Below are positions 421 to 56,693 of a DNA stretch of 64,000 nt, piece after piece. The stretch lies in assembly GCA_964016885.1 (NCBI GenBank), contig OZ024755.1, positions 13,330,001-13,394,000 on the forward strand, read 5' to 3'. This stretch comes from Eledone cirrhosa. Lineage: Eukaryota. Made by a program: the position numbers and the translations under genes. The notes beneath the pieces are model-generated. The model searched no databases. It saw only the letters and a list, made by a program, of their open reading frames with translations, and had not been told where the DNA came from. The first letter of the stretch is position 1. Every line of letters begins with the position of its first letter.

Positions 421-446
421 CTAATGAAGGAATAGTGTCCGAAACA
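421..446 (+). ncRNA. degenerate minimal hammerhead core (family of 54653-54691)
   Basis: CUAAUGA-a GGA auagug UCC-GAAAC; core G5 mutated to A. Confidence 0.4.
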
Positions 447-666
447 TACTCTTTCCCTATGAAGCGTTAAACTTATATATTTCTTCATTGTTTTGTGTTG
501 TTTGCTTTGTTGTTTCCATTTACTTTTTGTATATATATTATTTATTAAAATAGCAGATTAAATTTGCTCTAGGGGTCTTATATATTTGATATATATTTAT
601 CCTTATTGAGCTCTCTTTGGATTTTAGTCTTCAAATTTATTATTATTACTATATATATATATATAA

Positions 667-1656
667 TCTCTCTATATATATAAAACAGAGGATGTCTGTC
701 TGTCTGTGTAAATCCCTAAAACTCGAGAAGTACCTGACCGATTTTTTTGAAACTTTACACATGCGTTACTTATATTTCTTGAAGTGCAATGGGCTGAACA
801 TTTTTTAACTTTTTCTACATTAGGCGAAAAACCGAATTTTTAAGACATTTTAAGGCTTTTTTGAGGCGTAACTTAAAGATAATCCAGCCGATTTCTTTGA
901 AATTTGCAGCACACATTAGTTAGTCCCCTTGCATTGCTGTGGACAAAAAAAAATTTCAGGTTCCATTAATGGTTTCTAGGAAATTTACGAATTAGCATTG
1001 CGCATTACATGTCATTTACATTTTCAGTATAAACGCTACTTAAACATCGTAAGTAGCGTATAATATTTCGTTAAAAATTTGGTTTATTTAACAGAGGACA
1101 CAACACTTACTTACTTTTAAGAAAATGAGGGGGACCTTAAAATTTTTGTTGCCGCCCTGTTGACGCTTTGTGCTTTCATCACGCGCACATCCGGGCCTTG
1201 TGTACGTTGCCGTGTTATTGACACCGTAAAACTCACGTCTGTGTTACTTCTATTAAGACCCCTTTTGTTGTACCTACACCACAGTATGAACGTTCCGCCA
1301 AACAGCAGTTGTGCTAATTCCGTGGTGACCCCTTTTGTCGCACCTTTGTTGCTAGAAAAGTACCTAACCGACTTTCACGAAAAGTACCTAACCGATTTTC
1401 TCCAAATAGAAGAAAAATCATACTCTAAGATTTAGTACGCTCAAAGAGTATCCAGCTGATTTTCTTCAGATTTTGCACATGCATGCAAATGTTTCACGAT
1501 TCGGGCCTGCTTGTGTTCTACGTTTCCAGTAGATGAACCATCATTCCCTGAGAATAAGGGATTTCAAAAAGTACACAGCTACATTCCTCAATCTTTGCAT
1601 ATGCATGTTGCTATTTCACATTTCCTACCCCGTGCAACGCCGGGTCCTGCTGCTAA
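667..1656 (+). mobile_element. non-autonomous Helitron
   Basis: 5' TC...tatataaaa end with a (tgtc)n run; 3' GC hairpin CCCGtgcaacgcCGGG followed by CTAA, between host A and T; internal repeats of agtacctaaccgattt. Confidence 0.75.
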
Positions 1657-1862
1657 TATAAAATAAATTCAAGAGTAAATGACATATATAGGAATATAGA
1701 TAACAATACACAGGAGATAATTATATATATATAAGAATATGTTGTTTATGTGTGTGAAAAGAATATATATATAAATATATAAATATAAAGAAAAGTTTAA
1801 TAAACCATTTTGAAACCACTAATGTAATTAATTAGTAAATAATTTCATGTTTTAATTTACAG

Positions 1863-1896
1863 ATGAATCTCAAAAGGCAAGTTGGACTGTTGCTAG
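1863..1896 (+). CDS. SNX14: SNX14 coding exon (PX domain; (D)ESQKASWTVAR); upstream exons lie outside the window
   Basis: tttacAG acceptor, GTatgg donor; joins the next exon to give WTVARRYQEF, matching recalled vertebrate SNX14 WSVYRRYLEF. Confidence 0.85.
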
Positions 1897-2887
1897 GTAT
1901 GGATACAATTTTAATTAAATAGCTTATATTTAGAAGGAATCATAAAATCCCCATTAATAGAATGTTCTTTAAACAAGTCTTACATTGAAAACTTTAACAG
2001 TTTATCTCAACATCTCATATATTTAGTGTGGCTTCTTTAATTTGATATTGACTCTCTGAGGAATTCATGGTGTTGTAGAAGGTTCTTAAAGAATGCAGTC
2101 TGCTCTGCGAACTAGTTTGAATTCCTTACTGGGAAGATGTTATTTTCTACTTTGAAACATTCCAGAAAGGCATGCAAATTACAAATTTCTGTTTTATTTT
2201 GTCTTAAATCTAAGCTTTATCTCTAATTAGAAATAGCTATTGTTAACTTTTCCCCAACTTTTAAATATTTAAAAAATATTTTTTAAATATTATTTTATAT
2301 TTGGCACAGAAATATGTTAGTGATGTTAAAGATAAATTGAATAAAAAAAAATAACCCATGCAAGCATGGAAAAATGCACATAAAAATGATGATGATAATG
2401 CAACTCTCTGCACTTTGAGTTCAAATCCTGCCTCTTTCTGTCAGGAATTTCAACCAGCAGATAGTATCAGCAATAGCAAGATCAATAGAAACTTTGTTTC
2501 ATTGATCTGATCTGATAATTGGTTCCTTTCCTTTTTTTTTATCTTTTCCTATTATCTTCACATTATTACACTATCTTCTGTGAAGGGGTGTGGCTTAGTG
2601 GTTAGGGTATTCAGCTTGTGATCATAAGTATGTGAGTTCAATTCTCTTGTGTCCTTGAGTAAGATACTTTATTTGATGTATCTGTAATTCAAAGAGCTAG
2701 CTTTGTTACACTGTGTCATACAGAACCTCCCTGAGAATAACTGAATTACGGACACATGGGTGCACATATCTGTAGCATGCTCAGCTACTTGCATGTTAAT
2801 TGCATGGTTGTTCTATTATTTGAACATCTGTAGCACTCATCATTGTAATATTCCAACTATAACTGTAATATTCCAACTATATTTCAG

Positions 2888-2937
2888 ACGCTATCAAGAG
2901 TTTTATGTTCTAGAACAAAGACTGACAGAATTCCATG
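2888..2937 (+). CDS. SNX14: SNX14 coding exon (RRYQEFYVLEQRLTEFHG)
   Basis: tttcAG / GTaagt; near-identical to recalled SNX14 PX motif RRYLEFYVLESKLTEFHG. Confidence 0.95.
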
Positions 2938-3583
2938 GTAAGTAATTTACTGTAAGCTTTGCAGAAGTGGATGAAGAGAATGTTGACACATTGTAGTTAA
3001 AGTTTCTCAGTTTAAAACACACTGAAAGGTTGTTCAAATATGAAAAATAGATGTTAAACAGTGATGATGATAGTAATGGTGGTAATGATGATGATGATGA
3101 TGATGGAGATTATGATGGGGCTGATGGTGATGGAGTATGATGATGATGAAGGCGATGATAATAATGATGGAGATGATGATGAAGAAGAAAATGATGATGA
3201 TGAGGAGGAGGAAGAGTTTGAAGGAAGCAACAGTGCTTGTGGCCTTCACAGGCACTTCCAGAGAAATTGAAGCCATTAATGGGAGCTGCTTAAACTCCTT
3301 TCAGAAAGACATGAGCAGAAAGGGACTTTTAAGGGATTGACATTCTAACTATGAAGGATTGAGTATAGTGGTTCAATACATGGCCTGGGAGTTTGGATTT
3401 AATATAGGTGATGAGAATAGGAGAGATGAATATGTTGGTAGTGCCTGGGTGTAGGTACCATGAGACCAGCAAACTCTGAGTATCAGAAACTATTGTAGTA
3501 GTGGCAGATAAAGTAGAGGGAAGAGACATGTTTGCAGAGTATCATCTGTGAGTGACTTTATGCTGAACATATGTATCTGTTAT

Positions 3584-3890
3584 AGGCGGGAAATTGGCAG
3601 AGTTGTTAGAACATTGTACTCATTCCAGCTCTCTGAGTTCAAATCCCGCCAAGGTCAACTTTGTCTTCCATCCTTTCAAGGTTGATAAAAAAGTACCAGT
3701 CTAGTACTGGGGTCGATTCTTCCTCTATATCTCTTTCTCAGTTCCTCTCTCTCACTTTCTACCTTTCTCTGGAAGAAATCTGCTGTACTCAGGCCTGGAG
3801 AGGGGTGGGCTCTGCCAGGCTTAAAATGCCCAAGAAACACTGTGTCAATATGGCGCCCCCTACGATTCCATCAGGTGTTATGGGATCACA
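3584..3890 (+). mobile_element. tRNA-derived SINE (MetaSINE-like core); related copies near 11661-11920 and 36220-36600, many fragments elsewhere
   Basis: B-box gagttcaaatccc followed by gcctttcatcctttcxxggtcgataaaataaagtaccag-like core, seen about 10 times on both strands; family label is from memory. Confidence 0.7.
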
Positions 3891-4156
3891 CAGACATACA
3901 TGTATCTGTTAGAAATACATGCACACACGCGCACATATACATCACATACACACACACATAAACAAGCACACAAACACACACACATTAGTTGAAAGAGATT
4001 ACAATGTTTCACTTTAAAATGTTCTTATTACATATTAACCATTACATATGTTTCACAGATGATTGGCTTGAGGTTTTTATCGATGTGATAGACCTGACTC
4101 CAGTATTGATCCACTCATCAAATCAAAATGAGATGAAAATGTTTTGATTTCAATTC

Positions 4157-4254
4157 ACACATCTGATGAGCAGATCAATACTGGACTCATGTAGTCATGT
4201 ATATTACATTGATAAAGACCTTGAGCCAATCATCTGTGAAACATAAGTAATGGT
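4157..4254 (+). ncRNA. type I hammerhead motif with a long (about 55 nt) loop II
   Basis: CAU-CUGAUGA-GCAGAU...AUCUGU-GAAA-C auaa GUA-AUG; the mirror copy on the minus strand of the left hairpin arm has palindromic GAAACAUAUGUA. Confidence 0.65.
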
Positions 4255-4443
4255 CAATATGTAATAAAAACATTTTAAAATGAAACTTCATTATCATATA
4301 CCTAATATATACAGTCATTCTGCTACAGCTCCAAGTAATTCACATAACCTAGACATACACACACACACACTTATATGTTTTATTATTTACTATAATGTGT
4401 AATGTTGTTGTTTGATATATAATATTTTGATATATGTCCTCAG

Positions 4444-4550
4444 GTGTCAATTACTTTTCTGCATGTCAATTACCACCAAAGAAATCTTTTGGTACAAAGA
4501 ACCAAGATTTCATGGAGAGTAAAAAAGAACAATTTGAACAGTATCTGCAA
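4444..4550 (+). CDS. SNX14: SNX14 coding exon (GVNYFSACQLPPKKSFGTKNQDFMESKKEQFEQYLQ)
   Basis: cctcAG / GTaagt; 107 nt fits phase 1 to 0; PX proline-rich loop and helix. Confidence 0.95.
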
Positions 4551-5743
4551 GTAAGTAACAAATAATATCTATGTATTTGTATTAGTAACTTAAGTTATAT
4601 GCTATATGCATATATAGCACATTATATATATACAAATTTAAGGACTCAAAACATATCAAATATGTTAGAATTTTGTGCTTCTCAATAAACAAGCTCAATA
4701 GACTTTATCCAGAGCAATAATAAATCATCAAATGTAAAAGATATATGTATATATATATAGAGAGAGAAAGAACCATGTATCTTGCAGAATACACAATATA
4801 TTGTATATATACTAAATACATATTACAGAGAGGAATATGTACTCTTGATAGAATCAGAGTACATATTCCTCTCTGTAATATGTATTTAGTATATATACAA
4901 TATATTGTGTATTTTCCAAGATATATGGTTCTTTCTCTCTTTATATATACATAGATCTTTTACATTTGATATATATATATCAAATGTATCAAGAGTTTTT
5001 GTAGACTAAATTAAGGAAAAAGAGCACTCTCTGTTAAATACAGTGCTAAAGTATATTATTATAAAGTATATTATTTTACATGATTTACTTAGGAGAAAGG
5101 CTTCTGTGAGTATTATCCTCAGACTGAGGAACTTGTCTGAATGTTTGTAACAGAGTGGACTCTGTTAAAAGTAACCAAAAGCTAGGTGATGGTGTTAAAC
5201 CAGGTGGTGGAATAAATCTATCCCTCATGTAGGCCACATTGAGATTATGAACTCTAAGTGCAACAAGCTGCAACAAACACGGCAAAGCATCTCAAACAGC
5301 TCTAACGATTTTACTAATTCCTTGGACTGGTACTTCATTTTATCAACCCTTAAAGGATGAAAGGACAAGTTAATCATGGCAGGGTTTGAACTTAGGGAAT
5401 TTGTCTTGCACCTTAACAACTCTGCCAATTCACTGCTTTAACTCTTAACATCATATAATGGTTTAGCAGAAACCATCTAAAAATGGGTTTGTTAATTCAA
5501 ACATTTGCAGTACTTTTACTAGTGAACAGATCCTTGTGAAAATTCTTAATATTAAAAGGAGGACATAAATTTCTGATGTGATATAGTCATAGGGCTGTTT
5601 TATAATTTTTCAAGACTGTCTTTGATAATGCAGTTTCATGTGGTACAAGATGTTAAGTGTGAAACAGAGCATTTAAGAAGCCCATAGAGAATGTATTTAC
5701 ATTTAACAGACTTTTTATAAATTCAGAATTTCAAACTGAAATA

Positions 5744-6069
5744 CAGTGGAACTTCAGTTCACAAACTTAATTCATTCTTAAAAGCCATTCATCACCCAAA
5801 ATGTACATAAACTGAAACTATTTTTCCCATATGAAATGTTGAGAGAGAGACTGTGTGTGAAAGATAGATAGATATCACCATAGTAACTTACTACACAGCA
5901 AGTGACGCTTACCCACCGATACTCTAAGCTTGTTGCCAACCACTGTTGCCAGCTTGCATGTTCATTACTCAAGACACCATTCATGAACTGAGATATTTTA
6001 TGTTCAGAAAAATTGTTTGTGAACCGATTTGTTTGTGATGAGAGATGTTCGTGAAGCGAGGTTCCATTG
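5744..6069. mobile_element. pogo/Tigger-like MITE
   Basis: TA|cagtggaacttcagttcac ... gtgaagcgaggttccattg|TA: imperfect TIRs with TA TSD. Confidence 0.7.
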
Positions 6070-6195
6070 TACTTATGAATGAATTTCTTCCCTATAATGT
6101 TTATTGCACCACTATATCTACTTTTTATGTTATTTCTGTTTAGTCAGTTGTCTGTGACATTTTATTGTATATATTTCTGTTTCTAATTAATGTAG

Positions 6196-6298
6196 AAACT
6201 TGTTGCCATCCCCCAGTTACGAGGAAGTGAGTTACTTTACAACTTTTTGACCTCAAAAGATGAATTAACTTCAAGTTTTCTACCAGACATCAATATTG
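6196..6298 (+). CDS. SNX14: SNX14 coding exon (KLVAIPQLRGSELLYNFLTSKDELTSSFLPDINIG)
   Basis: tgtAG / GTaaag; 103 nt, phase 0 to 1; matches recalled KLLQHPELSNSQLLADFLS...LPDVNLG. Confidence 0.93.
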
Positions 6299-6899
6299 GT
6301 AAAGATAACTTTTATGTTTTTCTTTTTGTCTCAATATTACTTGATCTATTGGTTATTAGGGAAATAAAAAAAAGCAAAATATGGGGAAAATGTTCGTTTT
6401 TGCACTCTGTGTTAAAATTGACACTGAACCAACATCTGTAAACAAAATTACGTGCAATTTGCTTTTAAAGTAGGCTAAAAGTAACGGCTATCAAATGTCA
6501 AAAAGAAAACTTTCTTACTAACCCAACATTTTATTACCGCATGTTTTTGCCTTTCCTGTATAAGATGCACCCATATTTTGAAGAAAAAGTTACGAGGAAA
6601 AATGTTTTACTCTTATTAAAAAGGATTAACTCTTTTGATATGAAACTGCCTCTGTTTAAAACCTTTTGTTTTAAAGTGTTTATATTTATCTAAAAATCTT
6701 CCACCATAATTCTGATCCACCTCTGTCACTCACACATGTGACTGATCCACTTAAGTCATTTCTACTTATGATTAATCCATCTTAGTCGCTGTCAGGTATT
6801 TGACAGAGCCAGATTCTCACCTCCAATTTATGTTGTAACATAAAATGTTCTTATATAAAATTATGCTGGAATGTTTTAATTTAAATAGGAACCCTTTAA

Positions 6900-7120
6900 C
6901 CCTTTATCATTTACATTACTCTATATATAGTATTGTATTTTTGTAGTAAAGGCTTTACCTTACATAATTATCTCACATAATATTGAATCTACAACATTTT
7001 GATGTTATTTATTTTGAGAACAATATGTTAACGTCAGTATGAGTGGCTAATTATGGCCAGATTGAACAGAAAGAGGTGAGAGAATTCTGGCCGTATACAG
7101 CTGGTTTAGATGGTAAAGGG
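6900..7120 (+). mobile_element. piggyBac-like MITE (about 220 bp), copy 1
   Basis: TTAA|ccctt...aaaggg|TTAg; homologous to 13942-14161 and 15287-15507. Confidence 0.7.
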
Positions 7121-8408
7121 TTAGAGTGTTTATATTTATTTAAAAATCATAATTTTATCTTAGAACTTTTGATAAATTATGTCCCAAACACTAACTTAAT
7201 AATGAAAAAGTTATATTTCTAATCTTTTCAAGTTCTTGAAAATCATAGATAATGTCTATTATTAGAAATATGGTGATGAAAGGGTAAAGAAGGATGGCTT
7301 TGTGGTTAAAAGGTTTTGCTTTGCAAACCCATGGTTTCAGGTTTGATCCCACTGCATGGCATCTTGGGCAAGTGTCTTCTATTATTGCTTTAGGCTGACT
7401 AATGCCTTGTGAGTGAAATTTGGTTTACAGAAACTGTGCGGAAGCCCATCGTATATACTAGAGTCAGCTGAAAATTTCATAGGCTGACTATGGAGGAGTT
7501 ATGCTAGAGCTGTGAAATTTTGCATGCATTCATTTGAACTCTTTTTATTAATAACTGCATTGTTTCTTTCTAGGGACTATGTTAAAAAATAAACCTCATT
7601 TTGTCATTCCATGAAAGTATCTTGTTCAGCTTTGTGTGAACGTTGACACCACTTTGGTGATGTTTGCTTATGTCTCACTATTTAGCATTTTAATGGGTGA
7701 AAATCGGCTGAAAAAATATCAGATTTAAAAATAAATTTGGGTTGGCATCAGGAAGGGTGTCTGGATGTAGTGTACTGCTTGGAGAAGTCTTATCCAACCT
7801 ATGCCAACATAGAAAATAAAGTAGCAGTCCATAGGTGGTGGATAAGCGGAATTGTTAAAGAATCAGACAGGATGCCCTGCAGTATCTGATCCATTTCTGC
7901 CAGGAGTTGTGACCAGCAGATACTATCAGTAATGAAAAGACCAATCGAACTATAATTGCCATGGTCAGATCTGACAGATCTTTTATTTTCTATTTGAAAT
8001 GCGTCATTTGTTTGTGAGAAGCACTTTCAGGCTTTATTCCAGTTTAAAGCTAAACATTTTACTACCTTCTGAGAGAGCTCTTGTAGCATGATATTACCAG
8101 GGAAATATAATATAACTGTTCTAAGATGACTTATTGTTCTTTAATGTTAGTTACAGATAATGATTTCTTTATTGGTTTACAGATAATACAATGTAATAAC
8201 ATGTGATTGGTAACAATGTCATTGTCATTTACAGCTGCAGACAAAACTATAAGTTTAATAGGATGTAAGGTGAATATCCATCTTTATTTGTTTGCTATGA
8301 ATGAGGCATTCATTGGTAGAAATAAAAGCCACAAGGAAACCATATATTTATTGCTTGATTAACTCTCTTGTTTGCTGAACTGAATTTTGACTGTTTTATT
8401 GCTTGCAG

Positions 8409-8449
8409 GAAAAATTGTCAAGTCTGTTCCAATGAAACTACTGAAAGAG
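8409..8449 (+). CDS. SNX14: SNX14 coding exon (GKIVKSVPMKLLKE)
   Basis: ttgcAG / GTaaga; matches recalled GKIIKSVPGKLMKE. Confidence 0.93.
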
Positions 8450-9312
8450 GTAAGATCTGACGCACTATCTATCATGTATTAAAGTCTGTAGTCAATATAA
8501 TAACACATTTTATGAATTGCTAGAGTCAATGTAATTTACAAAGCTATCACACTCTACTAAATGTAATTTATTACTTTCACTTTCAAATAATATACTATAA
8601 TCAAGAACAGCATCCAGTCATAGCATACTGCCTAAAAAAAGTCTTGTCCAACTCATGCTGACATGGAAAAGCAGATGTAAAAATGATGGTGATAGTGATG
8701 ATGGTGGTAAGGGTAGTGGTGGTGATAATAAACTTATCCTTTGGAAAAATAATTTCTTTTTTTTTTGTTAGAATGTGCACACTTTTACTTTCTTTTATTC
8801 CTTTATTGGTTTCAGTCATTAGACTACGACTATGATAAGGGGATTTAACCCCAGTACTTATTAATTTTTTTTGTCTGTTACATATTTTATCGATTTCTTT
8901 TTATCAAATTGCTAAGTCATGGGACATAGGCAAATGTAAACACACAAATGTAAACACACATACATGCACCTAGCCCACACTGTAAATGTGGTTGGTGTTA
9001 GGAAGGGCATCCAGCCATAGAAACCAAGCCAGAAATAGTTCTGTATGGGTAAGACACGATCATCTGATCTGAATTGGCCCACAATGGGACAACTCATCTA
9101 ATCCATGCTAGCATGGAAAAATGGATGTTTACTGGTGATGATGATGATAAGCATATGATGAGCTTTATCAGTTTCCGTTTACCAACTCACAAGTCATTAG
9201 TCAATCCGAGGCTATAAAAGAAGATACTTGCTCAAAGTGCCACACAGTGAGACTAAACTGGAAACCAACAACATTGTGAAGTGAACTCTTTACATGCTTG
9301 CACCCCTATATA

Positions 9313-11281: not shown

Positions 11282-11352
11282 CGAGGGCAGCATATTGATC
11301 CATTTTTACAATCATTTCTTCAATCAACAGAAGCTCCGAAGCCTCGACCTTG
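11282..11352 (+). CDS. SNX14: SNX14 coding exon (RGQHIDPFLQSFLQSTEAPKPRP)
   Basis: ctttatAG / GTaagt; matches recalled [23 protein letters not shown]. Confidence 0.93.
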
Positions 11353-18816: not shown

Positions 18817-18981
18817 CACGCTTTGTGTACCATATCCCCGAATGGTTACACCATACTCTAATAATGTCCCGAATGCTCTTCAAACGTACCATTGAGAGCT
18901 ACGTACAGTATTATATCCAACAGAAATATTTCCAGATATGTCAGGAACACCGACTCGTTTATTATATCAATGTTGTTAAAA
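18817..18981 (+). CDS. SNX14: SNX14 coding exon (ARFVYHIPEWLHHTLIMSRMLFKRTIESY...QEHRLVYYINVVK), start of PXC domain
   Basis: tttcAG / GTaggt; matches recalled [27 protein letters not shown]...QEHRLV. Confidence 0.95.
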
Positions 18982-20829: not shown

Positions 20830-21869
20830 GTAAGCTCCATTGAAATATAAAGTTTTCTTTACATGTTTTAGTAAAACAATTTCATACTTTTTTTAAATGC
20901 ACCTTTTTTTATATTTTAAATTTATACACACTAGTGAAATAAAATTTCTTTTTTTCTTATCATTTAACCCTTGAGATATAAACTGTTGACTGGATTTTGA
21001 CAAAGTTTGATCTCAGTAGTCAGAAGACTCAAACTAGGTACCACAAAGGTATTATTCTCATTAGATATATATATCTTTATTATATATAGAAATTACTTCT
21101 ACAGGACTACAACTGTTTCATTCATAAGAAATCATCAAGAATATATGCTCAAATTATGGGCAATGAAATCTCAGAAAAAAATAACTCTCACGTATACTAT
21201 GCACTGACTTTTCTTTAGTATTATATGGAAAACAAATGTCTTGTCATTTATTATAATTAGTTTATAAAATGCATTGAAAAAGTTTACACATCCTAAACAA
21301 AACAAAACACAAATTCAAAAGCAGCTCTGAACTTTACTAGCCTAGGCCCATAAAACTGCACCTGCTGTAAATTCAACATTACGGAAATCACATAATTATG
21401 TATTTTTCTAGAAAATCGATTTGATTTTGATAATGATGGTGTACTCGAATAGGTTTATAGTCAATTTTACTATTCAGTTTGTTTCGTGATGCACATATTG
21501 TTGTGTTGCCTCCGGAAAACAAAGTGTTTATCATTTAAGCATAAATTGTTATAAAAATCCTATAACTTATTATTATTATTATACATTTAAAAAAAAAATG
21601 GTTTTTGGATATTTATTTTGCACTTCAGCTCTTCAGGATCTGCCAAAAAAAATGTTTTTAAAGTTAATAAAAAGAAACTATATTAATGAAAATTTATTCA
21701 GTATTTAAAATTTTCAGTAGTTTTCAGAGAGTGATTTTAAACCACTGCAATCAGTGATTCATATGTAATTCCATCGGCCATAGACCATGTTGACGCCATA
21801 CATATTTATAGCAAAAATTTCTATCTAGATTAAAACAAAAGAAAAGTGAAACATTTTTGTTTTTTTTAC

Positions 21870-22474: not shown

Positions 22475-23119
22475 ATGAATGAGACTAAAACAAAATATCT
22501 GGTAGAGAATGTTGAGAAGCCCGAGGGGATCACTAATGTAGGCAAAGATTGGGAGCAAAGATTAGGAGCAAAGATTGGGAATATGGAAGATGATGTGGTT
22601 GAGAGGAAGAGCAAGGCCTGGGCGGTATACCACAGCTTGAGATCGGTGTGGAAGTCGGACGTTCGTAAAGACCTGAAAATCCGCCTCTACATTGCTGTAG
22701 TGGAGTCTGTGCTGCTGTACGGGTCTGAGACTTGGACACTGACCAAGAAACTCACTCAGATGGTGGATGGGTGCTACACGAGAATGCCGAGGATGGCTCT
22801 GAACATTAATCAGTATACACTGAGGATGAAAAACTCAGAGCTGTATGGGAGCCTCCCAAAAGTCAGCTCAAAAGTGACACAGAGGAGACTGAGGTTAGCT
22901 GGACATGCTCACCAACATCCAGAGTTGACATTGCACTCAGTGCTCCTGTGGGATCCCCTACATGGACACACTGGAAGAGGAAGACCAAGGTTAACATATG
23001 TTGATGCCCTAAGGACAGACACTGGTCTGTTGGAGATGCAGGACATGGCAGCGATGATGAGGGACAGAGACCGCTGGAGAGAACTTGTCCATGGATCTTG
23101 GGAATTTTACCCGCCCTAG
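22475..23119 (+). mobile_element. 5'-truncated non-LTR retrotransposon, second RTE/RTEX-like family, ORF C-terminus
   Basis: AVVESVLLYGSETWTLT...RRLRLAGH...GRPRLTY...DRDRW; flanked by TA/TACA repeats. Confidence 0.88.
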
Positions 23120-25867: not shown

Positions 25868-25940
<73 letters not shown>

Positions 25941-28902: not shown

Positions 28903-29180
28903 GTATTAAGGGTACTATTTATGGTTATGTATGCAATAAAACCTTTGATGGTAATATATTATATATACACAAACCCTAAATAGTGAGAGATAGTCTTTAA
29001 TTACTATCCTATTACCAGTAAGTTAAATAGCTCAATGTAATAACATCAGTTGTTATACCAATATGCACATATGTTTTATGTGTCTCTTGGGTTGAAAAGG
29101 AGGTCAAGTATGTTATAAATAGCTGCTCCGAAGAATCCAAACCTCGGTTTGGAGGAAACAATTGTAAGCAAATAAATGAC

Positions 29181-32319: not shown

Positions 32320-32537
32320 TCTCTCTCTATATATATATATAAAATAAAGGAATTGTGGTAAGGAACCAGATGGGCCATAACGCACCCACCAGAGTACTCA
32401 ATACTTAGGGTAGTACAGTGGAAAATAGGAAAAAGTATGACCCCGACGGCAGAGCTCAAGCCGTTTCGATGGCTATTTCTGGACTCAAATAGCCGTCGAA
32501 ACGGCTTGAGCTCTGCTGTCGGAGTCATACTTTTTCC

Positions 32538-32587: not shown

Positions 32588-32970
32588 ACTCACTCAGATG
32601 GTGGATGGGTGCTACACGAGAATGCTGAGGATGGCTCTGAACATTAATCAGTATACACTGAGGATGAAAAACTCAGAGCTGTATGGGAGCATCCCAAAAG
32701 TCAGCTCAAAAGTGACACAGAGAAGACTGAGGTTGGCTGGACATGCTCACCGACATCCAGAGTTGACATTGCACTCAGTGCTCCTTTGGGAGCCCCTACA
32801 TGGACACACTAGAAGAGGAAGACCAAGGTTAACATATGTTGATGCCCTAAGGACAGACACTGGTCTGTTGGAGATGCAGGATATGGCAGCGATAATGAGG
32901 GACAGAGACCGCTGGAGAGAGCTCGTCCATGGATCTCGGGAATTTTACCCGCCTTAGATAGATAGATAGA
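32588..32970 (+). mobile_element. second copy of the 22475-23119 LINE family, more truncated
   Basis: nearly identical to 22750-23119; (TAGA)n tail overlaps the stop codon. Confidence 0.9.
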
Positions 32971-34432: not shown

Positions 34433-35453
34433 ATGTACTGGATGTATTTCATCATGTTATCAGCACTATCATTTTACAGAGTGTACTGGGTGCATTTTTT
34501 CATAGCACCAGCTTTAACATCTTGCAGACTGTACTGGAGGCATTTTATCATAGCACCAGTGTGCTACACCTTTGCAGAGAGTACTGGGTGTATTTCATCA
34601 TGGCACTAGCACTACCACTTTACAGACTGCACTGGGTGTATTTCCTCAAGGTACCAGCACTCCCACTTTACAGACTATGCTGGATGTATTTCATCAAGGT
34701 ACCAGCACTACCACTTTACAGACTATGCTGGATGTATTTCATCAAGGTACCAGCACTACCACTTTACAGACTATGCTGGATGTATTTCATCAAGGTACCA
34801 GCACTCCCACTTTACAGACTGTACTGGGTGTATTTCATCAAGGTACCAGCACTCCCACTTTACAGACTGTACTGGGTGTATTTCATCAAGGTACCAGCAC
34901 TCCCACTTTACAGACTGTACTGGGTGTATTTCATCAAGGTACCAGCACTCCCACTTTACAGACTGTACTGGGTGTATTTCATCAAGGTACCAGCACTCCC
35001 ACTTTACAGACTGTACTGGGTGTATTTCATCAAGGTACCAGCACTCCCACTTTACAGACTGTACTGGGTGTATTTCATCAAGGTACCAGCACTACCACTT
35101 TACAGACTGTACTGGGTGTATTTCATCAAGGTACCAGCACTCCCACTTTACAGAGTCTATTGGGTGTATTTCATCAAGGTACCAGCACTCCCACTTTACA
35201 GACTGTACTGGATGTATTTCATCAAGGTACCAGCACTACCACTTTACAGACTGTACTGGATGTATTTCATCAAGGTACCAGCACTCCCACTTTACAGACT
35301 GTACTGGGTGTATTTCATCAAGGTACCAGCACTCCCACTTTACAGACTGTACTGGATGTATTTCATCAAGGTACCAGCACTCCCACTTTACAGAGTCTAT
35401 TGGGTGTATTTCATCAAGGTACCAGCACTCCCACTTTACAGAGTCTATTGGGT
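34433..35453. repeat. 48-bp minisatellite, about 21 units, homogeneous from about 34600
   Basis: unit gtactgggtgtatttcatcaaggtaccagcactcccactttacagact; gives a 16-aa period in the ORF track. Confidence 0.95.
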
Positions 35454-35864
35454 GATGTGAAAAATGCACTTTTCTTTTTGCAATATCTCTGAGTGGAATG
35501 TTAGAATTGGTTATGTTGGCCTTTGGGAGGTTAATATTTGTATGTTTAAAGTGCAATGGTAGAGTATAAAGAACAGTATGGTAATGTGGGTGGGGTGGGG
35601 GTGAAACGTATATGATTTATAGGTTTGTTTTTATTGCTGTTTTCAGTATTGATGAAGATAGGTGTGAGAAGCAAGGGATATTGAAGTTGACATTATTTCA
35701 AACATATTTGTATCTAGTGGTGCTAATATATGGCTATTTTGGTAAGTGTTTGATTAGTCAAGTATTGTACATACAAATGTTTAGTGATAAGTTGTATTAA
35801 CAAATGAAGTAGAGTATATTTATATCCATACACACATACATATGTACACACACACACACGTGTA

Positions 35865-37827: not shown

Positions 37828-38315
37828 GTTGTAAAGTGGTAGTTCTAGTGACACAATAAAATGCACCCTGTACACTCTGTAAAGTGGTAGTGCTGGTCCC
37901 ATGATAAAATGATCCAATTACACTCTATAAAGTGGTAGTGCTGCTGTCATGATGAAATGCATTATGTACACTCTGTAAAGTAATGATGAGGGTGACACAA
38001 TAAAATGCACCCTGTACACTCTATAAAGTGGTAGTGTTGGTGCCATGATAAAATGTATCCAGTACATTCTGTAAAATGTTAAAGCTGGTGCCATGATAAA
38101 ATGCATCCTGTACACTCTGTAAAGTGGTAGTGCTTGTGACATGATAAAATGTACCCATTACACATTGTTAATTGCTTGTTCCATGATAAAATGTACTCTG
38201 TACACTCTGTAAAATGCTACTGCTTGTGGCATGAGAAAGTTCATCCATTACACTCTGTAAAGTGGTAATGTTGATGCCATGGTAAAATGCACCTAGCCCA
38301 CTCTGTAAAGTGGTT
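37828..38315. repeat. degenerate 48-bp array, reverse complement of the 34433-35453 unit
   Basis: gtaaagtggtagtgctggtgccatgataaaatgcaccc.gtacactct repeated about 10 times; similar array at 48620-48910. Confidence 0.85.
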
Positions 38316-39690: not shown

Positions 39691-39999
39691 ATATATATAT
39701 ATAAATAAATATAGATTTATAAATATATATAGTATATGTATATGTAAGTATATATTGATGTGTGTGTATATATATATGTATATATATCGATGTGTGTGAG
39801 TGCATTTATATACATATGTATATATCGATGTGTGTGTGTATTTTTATATATATCTATGTGTGTGTGTATGTATATATCGATGTGAGTGTGTGTGTATATA
39901 TATATATTTATATATGTATGTATATCTATATTGATATGTGTGTGTATATATATATATATATAAATATATATTTATGTAATAAACAACATAAGATAATTA

Positions 40000-40060
40000 T
40001 TTCATTTACCAGTAGTTTCTTGAAAGGAAACGAAATTTGCTTTCATTCATCAGAATGAAA
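40000..40060 (-). ncRNA. type I hammerhead ribozyme motif
   Basis: minus strand UUUCAUU-CUGAUGA-a UGAAAG [13 nt] CUUUCA a-GAAA-CUacuG GUA-AAUGAAA; 7-bp stem I, 6-bp stem II with an A.A closing mismatch. Confidence 0.75.
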
Positions 40061-40136
40061 AAATACTGGTGTCTATATATATATATATATTTCGTTTCTG
40101 AATTTGTTGGCAACATGACCCTCCCAAAGCATAACA

Positions 40137-41933: not shown

Positions 41934-43729
41934 GACCAGGTCATGAAGGTCACGGAAAGAGTAATAGCGCAGCTAATCAGAGAGAGAATTGACCTAGATG
42001 AAATGCAGTTCGGGTTTGTGTCAGGCAAAAGTACCACAGACGCTCTTTTCATAGTACGACAACTACAAGAGAAGTACCTAGCTAAAGGTAAACCCCTCTA
42101 CTTAGCTTTTGTCGACTTGGAGAAAGCCTTCGACAGAGTCCCCCGCTCCATTATCTGGTGGGCTCTTAGAAAACTAGGCGTTGACGAATGGCTTGTGAGG
42201 GCTATACAAGCCATGTATAAAGAAACAGTCAGCAAGGTTAGAATTAACAACGAATATAGTGAAGAGTTTAGCGTAAAAGTCGGCGTCCATCAGGGCTCTG
42301 TTCTCAGTCCACTACTATTTATTATTGCCCTTCAGGCCATAACAGAGGAGTTCAAGACAGGCTGCCCATGGGAACTCCTATACGCAGACGACCTGACACT
42401 CATAGCGGAATCAATGGCCGAGCTAGAGAAGAAATTCCAAACATGGAAGCACGGCCTAGAGTCAAAAGGACTTAAAATTAACCTGGCTAAGACCAAAGTA
42501 CTAGTTTGTAGGAAAGAAAACAAGGCGGCGGTCCCTTCTGGGAAATGGTCGTGCTCGGTGTGTAGGAAAGGCGTAGGTAGAAACTCCATTTTATGTCCTA
42601 AATGCAAAGTATGGGTGCATAAAAGATGCAGTGGGATCACAGGTAGGCTAACTAAGAACATAGATTTTACATGTGGCCGGTGCTCTGGTGCAATAAGTAG
42701 CAGCAAGTGCCCACAAACTACTAGCTCTTTCAATTGCGCAGAGGGTTCTATAGAAATAGTGGACAGCTTCCGTTACCTGGGCGATAAAATCAGCAGTGGG
42801 GGAGGGTGCTCTGAAAGTACTGTAGCTAGAGTCAGAACTGGTTGGAAAAAGTTCAGAGAGCTTATACCACTATTAGCTGCTAAAGGGTTCTCACTAAAAA
42901 TGAAAGGCAGGTTGTACGATGCCTGCATACGAACAGCAATGCTGCATGGCAGTGAGACCTGGGCATTGTGTGCAGAGGATATACGCAGACTAGAGAGGAA
43001 CGAAGCTTGCATGCTCCGCTGGATGTGTAACAGTAATATACGTGAACGGCAAAGCATAAACGAACTAAGGAATAAATTAGAGATAAGAGGGATCAGATGT
43101 TGTTTACTCGAGAGAAGGCTACGTTGGTATGGACACGTGATGCGCATGAAAGTCGATAGCTGTATAACAAAGTGCAGGGCAATAAAGATAGACGGTAGTC
43201 ACGGAATAGGCAGACCTAGAAAAACCTGGGACGAGCTGATAAACTCCGACATCACACACTTACACCTCTCCAAGACAATGTCACTGGACCGAGACCTTTG
43301 GCGGTACTCAGTAACAGAGAAGACCCGCCTTACCTAAATATATAGTAAAACCTACTCCAGCCAGTAGGCATCTCTAACAAATACACCCCGTCCCACCACC
43401 CCCACCCGATCCACACCACCCCGTTCTATGTAAAGTTATGTTGGTGCCGCGCCATCGAGGCCGAAACAAATGAGATCGTGTAGGTGTCACGACAAAAAAA
43501 CACACAGTCCACGCTGTAATGTGGCCGTGTAGGCAACACGGTAAAAACCTCCCAGACCCACACTGTAAATGTGGTTGGTGTTAGGAAGGGCATCCAACTG
43601 TAGAAAACCTGCCAGACAGTCCTATGCGAGCAAGACAATCACTCTTGCCTCAAGTGGGACTACCCCCGTCCAAACCCATGCAAGCGTGGAACACGGACGT
43701 TAAACGCTGATGATGATGATGATGATGAT
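41934..43729 (+). mobile_element. 5'-truncated RTE LINE; uninterrupted RT C-terminal frame 41934-43337, 3'UTR and (GAT)n tail
   Basis: [48 protein letters not shown] and GRPRKTW motifs; no stop in 467 codons. Confidence 0.96.
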
Positions 43730-45937: not shown

Positions 45938-45968
<31 letters not shown>

Positions 45969-47169
45969 TTAAATATAGAAATGGCTTTTACAGGACTAGA
46001 ACTGTTTCAATCGAAGGAAATCATCAGGGCTTTCCTTCGAATGAAACAGTTCTAGTCCTGTAGAAGCCATTTCTATATTAAAAATGTATACTCTGTTATA
46101 TATTGAGTGCCTTACTTACTCTGGTTACCCCTGATGGAACCCAGGATACACATATCTATCTCTCTTGAGATATGTTTGTGTATGTACCTATATATGTCTG
46201 TGTATTTATATATGTACATGTGTCTGTATGTGTATCGATGAGTGTTTGCTTGTGTTTCAATGTATATATAGATATGTATGTAGTGTATGTGCTTATATAT
46301 GTGTATGTGTGTTTGCTTATGTATGTAAGTGCACTTGTGTCTATATGTGCATAGATGTGTGTTTACTTCTGTCTGTGTATATGTGTGTGTGTGCATGTGT
46401 TTATATAGATATGTATGTGTGTATATATTTCTGTCTGAATGTATATGTAATTTATGTTTAATATTCTCACCATAGCATTAACAAACAGTTCAGTTATATT
46501 TTATCAAGAGAAAATATTCTCTCAGAAATTGTTGTGAGCAAATAGTAACAAATAATTGCATTCACAATGGTATGTCATTTATAATGTTATGTCATTTATA
46601 ATTTCTCTTCTAATATACATTTTGTAATGATTATTATTTTTATTATTATTGATGGCTTGCATAGTAAATATGATAATTGTTGGATCTTATACTGCTTACC
46701 GAGTCTCAACAAAGAACATTAGACAGATACTACATTCCTACAGTGGCCAACAGGGCAGTCTTTTGTAGGAGCGTAATTTGGGATTTGATACACTCTCAGT
46801 TTTAGTGGTGATAAAAGCCCCCTAAATTTAAGGTATATTTACTTAAGATACCCTTTCAGTTTTAGGGGTGTCAAGCCCCCTAAATTATCTTGATGTTAGG
46901 TGGTATTGACCACATTTGTCCAATTTTAATTTTTGTTATTGTTTTTTTTAAATTTCTTCTAATGCATGTTGTGGTCTTCTGGGACAGTAACATCAATGAT
47001 CTGGCAATTATTATTATTAGGGCACTGGATTGGCAGTATAGATAGACCATCGGAAATATGCTTTGCAGTATATAGTTACGGCCCTTTCAGTTCTGAGTTC
47101 AAATTCTGCCGAGGTTAGCTTTCATCCTTACGAAGTCGATAAAATAAAGTTATTAGTTGTTAGGAGCAG

Positions 47170-51355: not shown

Positions 51356-51396
<41 letters not shown>

Positions 51397-52414: not shown

Positions 52415-52465
<51 letters not shown>

Positions 52466-52532
52466 GTAGCCATTTCTATATATATATAGTGACGAACATA
52501 AGTCAATTGCATGAACTCATAATCCTTTATTT

Positions 52533-52588
52533 ACTGCTATATATATTTCGATGATAGCCATTGAATGGCTATGACCTCATCAGGCAGT
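52533..52588 (-). ncRNA. type I hammerhead ribozyme motif (intact core)
   Basis: minus strand reads ACUGC-CUGAUGA-GGU C AUAGCCAU uca AUGGCUAU C AUC-GAAA-U auau AUA-GCAGU: 5-bp stem I, long stem II, minimal palindromic stem III, AUA cleavage triplet. Confidence 0.85.
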
Positions 52589-52777
52589 TAGTCAGTTCTT
52601 AGATGTGCCATCTCTGTGTTTATAGTGTTGATGGTATCAGAGCCTTGGGACATATATATATGGTATCAGAGCCTTGGGATATATATATATGTGGTTACAC
52701 AACAGTTAGTTCACCATACCGAGAACAATTGGACATGGACATGGTTATAACAACAATAGACATGGTTATAACCATGT

Positions 52778-52827
52778 CCATTACGAGCTGAAGATCCGCT
52801 AAGGTGAAACAATTGTTCTCAGTATGG
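52778..52827 (+). ncRNA. minimal type I hammerhead motif
   Basis: CCAU uac GAG-CUGAAGA-u CC gcuaa GG u-GAAA-C aauu GUU-CUC agu AUGG; palindromic stem III AACAAUUGUU; stem I has an internal loop. Confidence 0.65.
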
Positions 52828-53121
52828 TGAACTAACTGTTGTGTAACCACTTCTACCTAACTCGTCCCATGGACTGAGTGCTCTACCACTACGGATATTA
52901 CCTCCCAATGTTCTACCACTATATATATATATATATATTCAATTGGATTTGACTCTATTTATAAGCTCCTATTAATATGTCAATGGTGGAAGATTTTATC
53001 GTCACGTTAAGAGATGGTAAAAGATGGAAGGGTAGCAGAAGATTGATGGTATTAATGAGGAATCAGTAATATTGGATACAAGCAAATGCTACGAGAGATC
53101 AGAGGCTACATACATCCACCA

Positions 53122-53538: not shown

Positions 53539-54285
53539 AACTGGTTACCAATCAATTACATATTTTGATGTTATTTTTATTGATCTACAGACAACTGATA
53601 GTTTCATCATGATATTAAATATATATTTGTGTGTGTATGCCTATCTATTTATGTGTGTCTATGTATGTATACTTGTAAATTTGTATGTGTGTCTATGTAT
53701 GTGTGTATGTGTATATCTGTCTATGTATGCGTATGTCTGTCTGTATGTATGTGTATGTCTATGTATGTGTGTGTTTGTGTATGTATGTATATGTATGTCT
53801 GTGTATGCATGTGTGTGTATGTGTCTGTATGTCTGTGTCTATGTGTGTGCATGCTTTACTGTTTGATGTTGTAGTTACCATATCACAGCTCTTATTTTCT
53901 GCTCTAGTTGATTGAAATTCATGTTAATTTCATACACCTTTGTCTCCTCCTCCCCCTCACCTGAAGTTCTGTGATATAATCATTTATATTGAACAGATTC
54001 CAATAAAGGTAGCAGACATATGTCTCATTATTTGAAGAATTAGAGTAGGAGGAGACCCGTGAAAACAACCAGCTTATCCACACCCCACCCCACACTGACC
54101 CACATCACATAGCTCCACACAGCCCTGACAGATCTTGAAATAATGCATGTTGGTCATCCATCACTTGTGATGATGAGTGCTCCAGTTATTTGAACAATGG
54201 AACAGCCTGATTGTGAAATTAACATGCAAGTGGCTGAGCATTCTACAGATACATGCACCCTTAACATAGTCTGGATTTTACATAC

Positions 54286-54615
54286 ATCATCATCATCATC
54301 ATTTTACGTCCGCTTTTCCCTGCTTGCAAGGGTTGGACGGGTCCTATTCAGCACAGCATCTCTCCACTTGTCACGGTCCTTCGTCATCTCCTCGGTGAGT
54401 TTCAGTGATCTGAGGTCTGCTCTCACCACCTCCGCCCATGTTTTACGTGGTCTACCTCTGCTGCATCTTCCTTCTACTGGGATTTCTTGGCACTTCTTTA
54501 CCCAGCGGTCATCCTCCATGCACATCACATGTCCATACCATCTCAGCCTTCTCTCCTGCACACCACAACTTATCCCTCTTATACCCAGTTTCTTTCTCAA
54601 CTTGTCTATGGAAGG
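54286..54615 (-). mobile_element. RTE LINE 3' fragment
   Basis: [21 protein letters not shown]...GRPRKTWAEVVRADL; (GAT)n tail. Confidence 0.9.
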
Positions 54616-54652
54616 AATATATTAGGTTAATGCTTGTACTAGCAGGAAGAGG

Positions 54653-54691
54653 GTCTTAACGTTTCGGATGCTAGTCCTTCATCAGTAGAAA
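54653..54691 (-). ncRNA. Penelope-type minimal hammerhead motif
   Basis: minus strand ucua-CUGAUGA-a GGA cuagca UCC-GAAA-CGUU aaga; palindromic AACGUU stem III can only pair as a dimer; stem I weak. Confidence 0.6.
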
Positions 54692-55612
54692 GAATGCGGA
54701 ATAGGATAGATTGAAAGGACAGGTGGGTTGGGATTGGAAAAAATATCTTTAGATAAAAATAATATATAACATTTGTGTGTGTGTCTTCATATTCAACATC
54801 ACAAGCAATGATATTTGTTTATGTTCTATATAAACAAAGATCTCACTGCCCACCAGTTATGTGTGTGAGCATTAATACCCTACTTAGAAACATGTGAGGG
54901 TCATCTCCATTAATGACAACCAACCATAGAACACTACCTCAAAAAGAATCTCCTCCAACCCATGCCAGTATGGAAAAATAAACGTAAAACTGATTATTAC
55001 GATGATGATGATTGTGTGGTGTTTGATTAGGTAGGAGTTTTGAAGAGTTTCTGCTATATCTGAAGTTTTTTGATTTGTCATTAATAAACCAGAATTTGTC
55101 TCAGAGATTTTCAATTCTTTCTACGCTTGCTGTATATCATTATTCCTTATTGTCCTGCATCCTTTCCTGCTGGCCATTGGCTCTCAATATAATTTGTTGA
55201 ATAACTCTTACTTTTCACCCACACAAATCTGATTATGATAAATTAGTTATAAGTAATTGAAGTGTCGATTAATAAGATATAAGCCTTTGGGAGAGAGGAA
55301 TTAAATTCTTCCACGTTCAATAAATTCAATATCTTCTGAAATTCAATAAAGAACTCATTTCTGTTACTAAAAATCAAGTTTTCTCTGGGGAAATTTCGTA
55401 AAGTACCTGGATAAAACTGGAAATCGAACTAATGGGAAAAAATATAAAGCAAAACTAACAAACAAAAACAACAAAAAAGCAACCCAAATAGTTCCACATT
55501 TTGTTTTTAAAAGATTCTTCTTAAATTCCATTTATCTTCATTAGTTAAAATCTTCATGAACTGGATAAAAATCATTTTCTCTCAGATTGTCAGTGTGTTT
55601 AAAAAGATTAAG

Positions 55613-55643
<31 letters not shown>

Positions 55644-56634
55644 TAAATGTATGTATATATATAATGTATGTGTATGTATATATTCATATATATAAGGGAA
55701 ATGGATGTTAAATGTTGAAGACAATGTAATATACTCTTCCTGTTACTGGAAAGTAGATACAATTCTCTCATCATTTACAATCAAATATACGCGAGTCATT
55801 GCTTGTGTGTATATGTGTGCACATGTGAAAGTAATCCCCACAGTAAATAGCTATAATAAATTCGATAAGTTTATAAATACCATGGCTCTCAATATATTTA
55901 TTTTCATTAATTACATAAAAGACAAATGTCTGATACACTGTTGTTCAACTGTCCATTCCTCTCTCTATATCGTTACAACTAATATTTCATTTAACTCATT
56001 AATTTCCTGCAAATAGAAGCTAATTCCTTAATTCCTTAAAAACAATAAATATTCTGTCACACAAAATGAAATAGTTTAATGAAATATGAACATCTGTGAA
56101 CTTAAATATTTTTTGGTTTCAAAATATTCGAAATTTCATGAAGTTTGGAAAAAGTAAGGTGATTTATTTTGATATTCTTGTAAAAAATTTTTTTTCATAT
56201 ATTATTTAGTCAGAGAAGACAGGCCAGTATCTATAGGTGTATTCAGGGCTTCCAAAATTGGTGGGTGTGAGGGAGGAAGGACAGTGTCCTCAAACTAGGT
56301 TGTGGCAGTGATAAACTGGGTAATTACTACCCAAGCAGGTCACAGCAGGTTTTGAACTAGGATTGAAAATTGCCAGCACTGTGGGAGCTCAGCAGTCAGC
56401 ACAAACTATTTATAATATATAAACTCTACTTTCTCAAGTATTGTGTACTTAGCTGAACATGGTCTTACTGGTCTAGACTAGTAACTTCCAATCTCTCTCT
56501 CTGTATGTATATATATATATATAAACAACTGACCATAGCAGAACGTAAAAATAACCGTTAAAAACTTTACTTTTCTCTAATATTATTTCTCCAAGAAAGA
56601 CTTTCTTTTTTATGTTTTCTTTGTGTTGCTTCTA

Positions 56635-56693
56635 ACTATCTGAAGAGGTCATAGCTGTTGAATTGTGGCTATCACCAAAATATATATAATGGT
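56635..56693 (+). ncRNA. degenerate hammerhead, same family as 52533-52588 (GAAA mutated to AAAA)
   Basis: ACUAU-CUGAAGA-GGU C AUAGC...GCUAU C ACC-AAAA-UAUAUAUA-AUGGU; stems preserved by compensatory changes. Confidence 0.7.

What the first reader, a model, noticed from the sequence alone, without database searches (positions are those of the whole stretch)
421..56693. Dispersed hammerhead-ribozyme units, mostly beside (TA)n microsatellites, in SNX14 introns: candidate non-autonomous Penelope-like or retrozyme system
Seen: at least seven short non-coding units carry the type I hammerhead core CUGA(U/A)GA...GAAA...NUH with plausible helices: 4157-4254 (+), 40000-40060 (-), 52533-52588 (-), 52778-52827 (+), 54653-54691 (-), and degenerate 421-446 (+) and 56635-56693 (+). 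Weaker cores occur near 21100-21140 and 45990-46030 (-). They belong to several unrelated sequence families, most lie beside (TA)n tracts, and several have a tiny palindromic stem III (ACAUAUGU, AACAAUUGUU, AACGUU, AUAUAU). Established: minimal hammerheads with a palindromic stem III that cleave as dimers mark Penelope-like element pLTRs and metazoan retrozymes. Inference: a multi-family population of small ribozyme-bearing retroelements associated with TA microsatellites, at roughly one per 7-9 kb here, with no Penelope ORF recognised in the window. I cannot tell from the sequence whether these families are already catalogued.
Basis: partly seen in the sequence, partly recalled or inferred. 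Interest (0 to 1): 0.9.

Follow-up and report, generated by a model that had tools for sequence, protein, structure and literature searches.

The report
Penelope retroelement hammerhead stubs, octopus-like genome
The scattered hammerhead-ribozyme motifs in these introns are real but ordinary: they belong to repeat families, most of which continue in longer copies into the genes of Penelope-like jumping elements, so they are likely cut-off tail ends of a known kind of element that lands in TA repeats, and most copies here are damaged and predicted not to cut.

Summary
The motifs are real: 4 strict type I hammerheads against 0.08-0.19 in shuffles. The nine listed units fall into six interspersed repeat families, and a seventh (29128, U4C core) was missed. 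They are mostly not non-autonomous elements or retrozymes. Walking upstream in longer genomic copies joins 52778 (9 of 30 loci), 52533/56635 (11 of 30) and, weakly, 40000 (1 locus) to Hydra-type RT/GIY-YIG ORFs, and 54653/421 to a Neptune-type ORF. 45990/21100 links indirectly through a sister copy; 4157 stays unlinked. Copies show the published Penelope anatomy: variable 5' truncation, inverted arm, one-sided tail, 3' end in (TA)n. Only 3 of 300 loci had a same-strand pair, so no retrozyme arrays. An unbiased 400 kb sample held 38 motifs (about 280,000 genome-wide), so this window is average. Only two window copies match their family majority in all stems. The class is published (PMC4209133, PMC8557442), and this scan already noted it in 52 findings. 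Residual interest: the scale, and a small tail motif shared by unrelated families just past where short arms end.

The parts
400..446 (+). Unit F: decayed stub of family E (Neptune-type 3' end); core G5 changed, stem III/I lost; predicted dead
   Evidence: (91% to E copies)
4006..4286 (.). Unit A: fold-back of two arms; + arm hammerhead 4160-4251 with long stem II and broken stem III palindrome; - arm 4012-4120 with C3 changed to U. Old family (78-84% identity), parent ORF not found
11282..11352 (+). Probable exon of the host sorting nexin gene (SNX14 likeness recalled, no database hit)
18843..18980 (+). Host exon matching Pfam Nexin_C positions 1-47
   Evidence: E 5e-4, under cut-off
21065..21141 (-). 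Unit H: decayed stub of family I, core C3 changed to U, ends at TA
29059..29179 (+).
39972..40078 (-). Unit B: nearly intact hammerhead and short 3' end; family has a ~1.2 kb low-complexity upstream body joined in one locus to a Hydra-type RT/EN ORF
45955..46150 (.). Unit I: fold-back 45960-46090 plus one-sided tail on +; tail-bearing arm has lost CUGAUGA, the other arm lacks the stem I partner; predicted dead
46090..46113 (+). Tail motif (RCTC-loop-RAGY-RCYYT) of family I
52488..52652 (-). Unit C: intact hammerhead identical to family majority; 3' end of a Hydra-type element with ~1.3 kb 3' UTR; ends in TA
52691..52919 (+). Unit D: inverted partial arm 52691-52731 (-), main arm with intact hammerhead 52778-52827, short terminus ~52854, 65-nt tail to 52919, then TA; 3' end of a Hydra-type element, core ~170 nt after the EN stop codon
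52860..52884 (+). Tail motif hairpin of family D, starting ~5 nt past the short terminus
54604..54740 (-). Unit E: minimal hammerhead (extra A after A9, loop-less ACGU stem III), stem I mismatch in this copy; 3' end of a Neptune-type element
56632..56706 (+). Unit G: old copy related to family C, G12 changed to A; predicted dead
61735..61833 (+). Probable last exon of the host gene (SNX14 likeness recalled; no Pfam hit)

Best explanation
The units are members of genome-wide repeat families, most of which run upstream into Penelope-like RT/GIY-YIG genes in longer copies, so they are likely 5'-truncated insertion stubs of autonomous Penelope-like elements (Hydra-type for 52778, 52533/56635 and probably 40000 and 45990/21100; Neptune-type for 54653/421). 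Shown: family membership, fixed 3' ends at (TA)n, variable 5' ends, inverted arms, one-sided tails, colinear ORFs, decay of most window copies. Inferred mechanism: the element's endonuclease nicks (TA)n, reverse transcription starts at the RNA end that carries the hammerhead and tail, and usually stops after 100-300 nt, often folding back to make an inverted arm; because the hammerhead sits within ~50-100 nt of that end, nearly every stub keeps it. The ribozyme is predicted to cut only as a dimer through its palindromic stem III in tandem transcripts of the parent element. Lone intronic copies are predicted not to cut the host pre-mRNA: they are single, mostly mutated, and those in fold-backs are sequestered in long hairpins.
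For: Every queried family is interspersed on many contigs (first-look candidates 46-2139, lower bounds). Same-strand upstream ORF: D 9 of 30 colinear at 70-92% to the L020 ORF (10 hits, one being another family); C 11 of 30 after one walk, with RT, DKT, CxCx5C, CxxC, CxH in L297; E contiguous with an RT/EN ORF in L236, L261, L296 carrying DKG, CX4CxxC and CCHH-type residues; B in L278/L293. Family I: with a junction-free query, 19 of 30 copies had an inverted arm with many different junctions, and two had a longer body that by eye resembles the body of sister copy L058, which abuts a Hydra-type EN fragment. 3' ends fixed at TA: D 27 of 30, C 30 of 30, B 30 of 30, E 22 of 30 against 0.25-0.35 in flanks; 27 of 38 unbiased motifs against 0.22. 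Stem I of the I group shows double-sided changes at 2 of 6 pairs (12 cells, 0 of 500 shuffles). Stem III folds as an intermolecular duplex but not as a hairpin in A, B, C, D, E. Same anatomy in print (PMC4209133 parts 1-2, PMC8557442 section 11 and passages, PMC3846280 passages).
Against: Family A: 0 of 30 loci with an upstream ORF, and TA within 150 nt in only 12 of 30 (control 0.18); the walk found only the query. Family I: 0 of 60 loci with a colinear ORF, and 28 of 29 copies from the junction-containing query share one junction. B rests on one ORF-bearing locus, with ~140 nt after the stop codon only partly matched in other copies. The E count of 27 of 30 is partly circular because the DNA query lay at the ORF end. 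Pfam did not recognise the D, C or L200 ORFs; only the L069 EN hit GIY-YIG (E 5e-4, under cut-off), so clade labels rest on motifs read by eye against the published alignment and on tblastn links, with no tree. Covariation rows were preselected by the descriptor and 7 of 28 were left out. No cleavage or expression evidence.
Confidence: 0.88

Rival explanations
1. Some families (4157, 29128, or the fixed-junction subfamily of 45990) are true non-autonomous elements that borrow Penelope RT/EN and are copied as short units.
For: No ORF found upstream of A (0 of 30) or I (0 of 60); one junction shared by 28 of 29 copies, across two tail subtypes. PMC3846280 reports mobilisation in trans by pLTR sequences alone.
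Against: The unbiased I query gave many junctions and longer bodies; arm variants are private (2 mirrored, 59 one-arm-only variant calls), which cannot tell unit copying from a fold-back hot spot. A is too diverged for the word-based search, so absence of an ORF is weak. C and E also showed almost no ORFs (0 and 1 of 30) until walked.
Confidence: 0.2
2. The units are animal non-LTR retrozymes: tandem 150-450 bp repeats that yield circular RNAs.
For: Type I hammerheads in a mollusc-like, AT-rich genome; mussel retrozymes are published (PMC7229834 passages).
Against: Only 3 of 300 family loci had a same-strand pair 100-1000 bp apart; of two inspected, one looks like two separate insertions and one is a partial tandem of the E 3' end. 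Stems are the minimal Penelope type, not the canonical 6/4-bp type.
Confidence: 0.04
3. The hammerheads are co-opted to cut or regulate the host sorting nexin pre-mRNA.
For: Units A, D, F, G, J lie on the sense strand of the gene; D is intact.
Against: Density in the window (4 in 64 kb) is no higher than in 40 fixed genomic samples (38 in 400 kb); most copies are mutated in core or stems; D and A are predicted to be locked in fold-backs of -92 and -146 kcal/mol.
Confidence: 0.03

Closest known systems
Minimal hammerheads in pLTRs of metazoan Penelope-like elements (Cervera and de la Pena 2014, PMC4209133; parts 1-2 of 4 read)
   Same: Type I topology, short or absent palindromic helix III, short helix I, long helix II, extra nucleotide after A9, many families per genome, mostly single dispersed motifs attributed to truncated elements, pairs on opposite strands 100-700 bp apart.
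   Different: Estimated ~280,000 motifs here against 2,000-9,000 per genome there (different descriptors). Several families have a 10.1-11.1 mismatch (U-U in D and I, A-A or C-A in B) instead of G-C, and J has U4C. Cephalopods are not named in the parts read.
Hydra clade of C-terminal EN+ Penelope-like elements, incl. Hydra-1_Obim of Octopus bimaculoides (Craig et al. 2021, PMC8557442; section 11, passages, supplement search hits)
   Same: RT then GIY-YIG, CxCx5C linker, CxxC and CxH, DKT, (TA)n target, hammerhead near the 3' end; RT motifs of D, C and B resemble the printed Hydra alignment.
   Different: The Hydra-1_Obim hammerhead row differs in sequence from all window units, so these are other families; C and B have 3' UTRs of 1.2-1.3 kb; no tree was run.
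Neptune clade Penelope-like elements
   Same: Family E ORF has DKG, a CX4CxxC linker and CCHH-type residues around GIY-YIG.
   Different: Assigned by motifs only; Nematis, which has a reduced linker, was not excluded by phylogeny.
Penelope insertion structure in Adineta vaga (PMC3846280; passages)
   Same: Inverted truncated pLTR, optional one-sided tail, palindromic junctions read as self-priming.
   Different: Tails here are ~55-75 nt rather than ~31 nt and carry a shared motif; targets are TA tracts, so target duplications cannot be read.
Animal non-LTR retrozymes (Cervera and de la Pena 2020, PMC7229834; passages)
   Same: Type I hammerhead in short AT-rich repeats.
   Different: No tandem arrays, minimal rather than canonical ribozymes, and coding parents exist.

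Membership tests
Type I hammerhead ribozyme | CUGANGA/GAAA/NUH core with three stems, above chance | tested here: met
   4 of 10 window units pass; shuffles 0.08-0.19; family majorities of A-E all pass
Type I hammerhead ribozyme | Core conserved and stems covary across copies | tested here: met
   Core columns 80-90%+ conserved except N7; 2 stem I pairs with double-sided change in the I group (rows preselected); one stem II pair U-A to C-G between C subfamilies seen by eye
Type I hammerhead ribozyme | Self-cleavage | not testable with these tools
   No assay; RNA contigs gave no cover
Rfam Hammerhead_1 (RF00163) | Score above gathering threshold | tested here: not met
   No window unit listed; 18 matches of another family elsewhere in the genome among 74 scored candidates
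Penelope-like element 3' end / pLTR | Colinear upstream RT and GIY-YIG ORF | tested here: met
   D, C, E in several loci, B in one
Penelope-like element 3' end / pLTR | Colinear ORF for families A, I, J | tested here: inconclusive
   A 0 of 30, I 0 of 60 with an indirect link through L058; J not walked
Penelope-like element 3' end / pLTR | Variable 5' truncation, inverted arm, one-sided tail | tested here: met
   Seen in D, B, A, I copies; C rarely inverted; E not seen inverted
Hydra clade | CxCx5C linker; CxxC and CxH in EN | tested here: met
   D, C; B has CxC, CxxC and CxH with a break in the linker
Hydra clade | DKT motif | tested here: met
   C only, L297; the D and B copies held do not reach it
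Hydra clade | RWK motif and placement in an RT tree | not tested
   No copy inspected at the N-terminus; reference proteins not available as files
Hydra clade | (TA)n target | tested here: met
Neptune clade | DKG, CX2-5CxxC linker, CCHH in EN | tested here: met
   Family E, read by eye in L236, L261, L296; no tree
Animal non-LTR retrozymes | Head-to-tail arrays of 150-450 bp monomers | tested here: not met
   3 of 300 loci with a same-strand pair
Animal non-LTR retrozymes | Circular RNA expression | not testable with these tools
   Only contigs with small word shares were offered

The most novel reading that the evidence does not exclude
Unrelated Hydra-type families share a small tail element (RCTC, 8-16 nt, RAGY, RCYYT) 5-12 nt past the point where tail-less arms end; it is the cis signal that sets where the RT/EN protein binds or starts, and it lets short ORF-less units (possibly the 4157 or 29128 family, and a hammerhead-less palindrome at 32432) ride the same machinery, in a genome holding some 280,000 hammerheads.
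Probability: 0.3. Interest if true: 0.55.

Novelty: new member of a known kind. Interest (0 to 1): 0.24.

Why it matters
As it stands it adds several uncatalogued families to a published class and shows how dense such stubs are in an octopus-like genome (about one descriptor-passing hammerhead per 10 kb). A 2026 repeat annotation of Octopus vulgaris lists Penelope-like families but its main text has no occurrence of 'hammerhead' or 'ribozyme' (PMC13282606, word search), and the giant squid paper counts 235 Rfam hammerheads (PMC6962438), so the scale may be under-reported. How Penelope-like elements start reverse transcription and make tails and inversions is unresolved; thousands of young junctions and a shared tail motif would make that testable.

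Tried and rejected
Rfam scans: no hammerhead row shown for the window (one search showed 150 of 230 rows). Pfam on Hydra-type ORFs: nothing above cut-off. My first label 'Neptune' for family D was dropped after reading the Hydra definition. The RT next to the C copy in L050 belongs to another element, as does the EN upstream in L292. Walk for family A from L082 returned only itself. Reading family I as a fixed MITE-like palindrome was weakened by the junction-free query. RNA evidence: 24 runs listed, RNA ones with word shares of 0.07 or less; 4 laid, none covered the stretch; this says nothing for or against expression. Lunse et al. (PMC5785218) was not held, so dimer cleavage is cited second-hand through PMC6765202 passages. 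Paper searches for hammerhead+Penelope+octopus and hammerhead+cephalopod+retrotransposon returned only PMC8557442 and PMC6962438; no search was run specifically for the tail motif or U4C, and supplements other than those of PMC8557442 were not examined, so families may be catalogued in repeat libraries that I could not see. Look-ups of earlier findings by place and by sequence gave nothing relevant.
Full report
Setting. The window is G000:C15:13,330,001-13,394,000 of a 3.0 Gb assembly in 1,796 contigs. I infer an octopus-like genome from its size, contig pattern, repeat content and the likeness of its Penelope-like ORFs to Hydra-1_Obim; no call names the species. The window is 34% GC, rich in TA tracts, holds RTE-type LINE fragments and exons of a sorting nexin gene on + (Nexin_C, E 5e-4; the SNX14 name is recalled). 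It has no Penelope ORF.

Observation. All cited units are present. A type I descriptor gave 4 complete motifs against 0.19 in 100 local shuffles; a looser version written after seeing the candidates gave 4 against 0.08. The nine units reduce to six families: A (4157), B (40000), C (52533, 56635), D (52778), E (54653, 421), I (45990, 21100). A seventh, J at 29128+, has a CCGAAGA core that is kept in 5 other copies among 371 loci. Against family majorities, only C and D are intact; B has two stem changes; A has lost its stem III palindrome; E has a mismatch at the base of stem I; F, G and H have core changes; I has lost the core on the arm that can form stem I.

Families. Each unit retrieved 40 scored candidates across many contigs (first-look candidates: D 1723, C 46, A 533, E 1720, B 1076, I 2139; lower bounds). 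D, C and B are young (92-100%), E about 90%, A 76-84%. Copies passing the descriptor: D 27, B 27, E 22, C 20, A 5 of 30 each, I 7 of 30. 3' ends are fixed and abut TA: D 27 of 30, C 30 of 30, B 30 of 30, E 22 of 30, A 12 of 30, against 0.18-0.35 in flanks; I 22 of 30 within 60 nt of the tail end. 5' ends vary, many copies carry an inverted partial arm, and a tail of about 55-75 nt is present on one side only. This is the anatomy described for endonuclease-bearing Penelope-like elements (PMC8557442 passages; PMC3846280 passages).

Link to coding elements. D: 9 of 30 loci run upstream into a GIY-YIG-type ORF ending about 170 nt before the core, with RT in longer or inverted copies. C: none of the first 30 loci reached an ORF, but one walk upstream gave 11 of 30 with an EN about 1.3 kb before the ribozyme, and L297 shows RT, DKT, CxCx5C, CxxC and CxH plus an inverted C hammerhead ahead of the ORF. 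These are the Hydra features in section 11 of PMC8557442. E: a walk gave RT/EN ORFs with DKG, CX4CxxC and CCHH-type residues, hence Neptune-type. B: a low-complexity body of about 1.2 kb is shared by many copies and follows a Hydra-type RT/EN in one locus, L278/L293. I: no colinear ORF in 60 loci, but longer bodies in L323 and L327 resemble by eye that of sister copy L058, where an EN fragment lies between the inverted arm and the forward copy. A: no link. Pfam recognised only the EN of a neighbouring family (L069, E 5e-4); D and C ENs match it at 25-46% by tblastn. Clade labels therefore rest on motifs, not a tree. The Hydra lead came from earlier findings of this scan and was checked against the paper and its supplement.

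Non-autonomous or retrozyme? Same-strand pairs 100-1000 bp apart occurred in 3 of 300 loci, so there are no retrozyme arrays of the kind in PMC7229834. Family I looked like a fixed palindrome (28 of 29 copies with one junction), but the query contained that junction; a junction-free query gave 19 of 30 with an inverted arm and many junctions clustered near the start of stem I. I read this as a fold-back hot spot, though a subfamily copied as a unit is not excluded.

Ribozyme. Stem III of A, B, C, D and E forms an intermolecular duplex and no hairpin in folding calculations; E's is a loop-less ACGU that can only pair in a dimer. 16 of 31 sequence clusters among 366 descriptor hits in the loci had a member with a perfectly palindromic stem III, which the descriptor did not demand for loops of 4 nt or more. 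In 21 I-group rows (7 bulged rows of 28 left out), 2 stem I pairs show double-sided changes, 12 cells against 5.1 in shuffles. PMC4209133 reports no monomer cleavage and weak dimer cleavage for such motifs. Activity here is untested; RNA contigs gave no cover.

Scale. Forty 10-kb stretches at round coordinates held 38 motifs in 21 stretches, against 0.85 in 20 shuffles; that is one per 10.5 kb, about 280,000 genome-wide (Poisson 200,000-390,000; wider in truth, since inverted pairs count twice and a few hits are chance), with 27 of 38 near TA against 0.22. The window, at 4 per 64 kb, is not enriched.

Mechanism. Shown: stubs of repeat families with fixed TA-abutting 3' ends and coding parents. 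Inferred: target-primed reverse transcription at (TA)n from the hammerhead-bearing RNA end, early termination, frequent fold-back. The ribozyme probably serves the parent's tandem transcript; lone intronic copies are predicted inert, and the A, D and I fold-backs are predicted long hairpins in the pre-mRNA (-146, -92, -82 kcal/mol).

Side result. Following a lead from earlier findings, a pattern drawn from the D, B and I tails (RCTC, 8-16 nt, RAGY, RCYYT) occurred at fixed distances after the cleavage site in D (29 of 46), I (16 of 33), B (16 of 49) and, out of sample, in an unrelated group (10 of 26, 3 of 7, 2 of 4), against 0.0085 expected per 170 nt; it was absent from C (0 of 42) and E (0 of 36). 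It starts 5-12 nt past the short terminus. Its function is untested and other agents of this scan noted it before.

Verdict. Real, ordinary for this genome, a new set of members of a published class; found before by this scan in 52 findings in at least 3 genomes.

Noticed in passing
Parent not sought.
   Followed up: partly
window 52860-52884 +, 46090-46113 +, 25981-26001 +: Shared tail motif RCTC-loop-RAGY-RCYYT in families D, I, B and an unrelated group, just past the short terminus; absent from C and E.
   Followed up: partly
window 32432-32533 and ~25940-26050: Abundant ~100-bp palindromic element without a hammerhead, flanked by TA, with a one-sided tail that carries the shared motif at 25981; hits in 60 of 371 loci and 7 of 40 unbiased stretches. 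Candidate passenger of the same machinery.
   Followed up: partly
L001-L010: A young, canonical-looking hammerhead family that scores above the Rfam Hammerhead_1 cut-off, with the same TA, inverted-arm and tail anatomy; not present in the window.
   Followed up: no
window 52488-52919: Units C and D are stacked back to back at one short TA tract; such nesting of different families is common in the loci (one motif per 6.1 kb of flank).
   Followed up: partly
L200:3075-5640 +; L194:1212-3420 +: Further near-full-length Hydra-type elements, each with its own different hammerhead family.
   Followed up: no
L204, family C 3' UTR: A ~149-bp segment of the C 3' UTR is tandemly amplified up to 7 times; B also has a microsatellite-like UTR, so these elements may spread simple repeats.
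   Followed up: no
window 41997-43337 +, 22500-23119 +, 32590-32957 +: RTE-type LINE fragments; the first has RT and a PHD-like finger.
   Followed up: no
window 34434-35454, 37830-38314: 48-bp tandem arrays derived from a common short interspersed repeat.
   Followed up: no
window 4006-4286, 4800-4901, 45960-46090, 52691-52850: Several long intronic fold-backs would form double-stranded RNA in the host pre-mRNA and could be A-to-I editing substrates (idea also in an earlier finding; untested).
   Followed up: no
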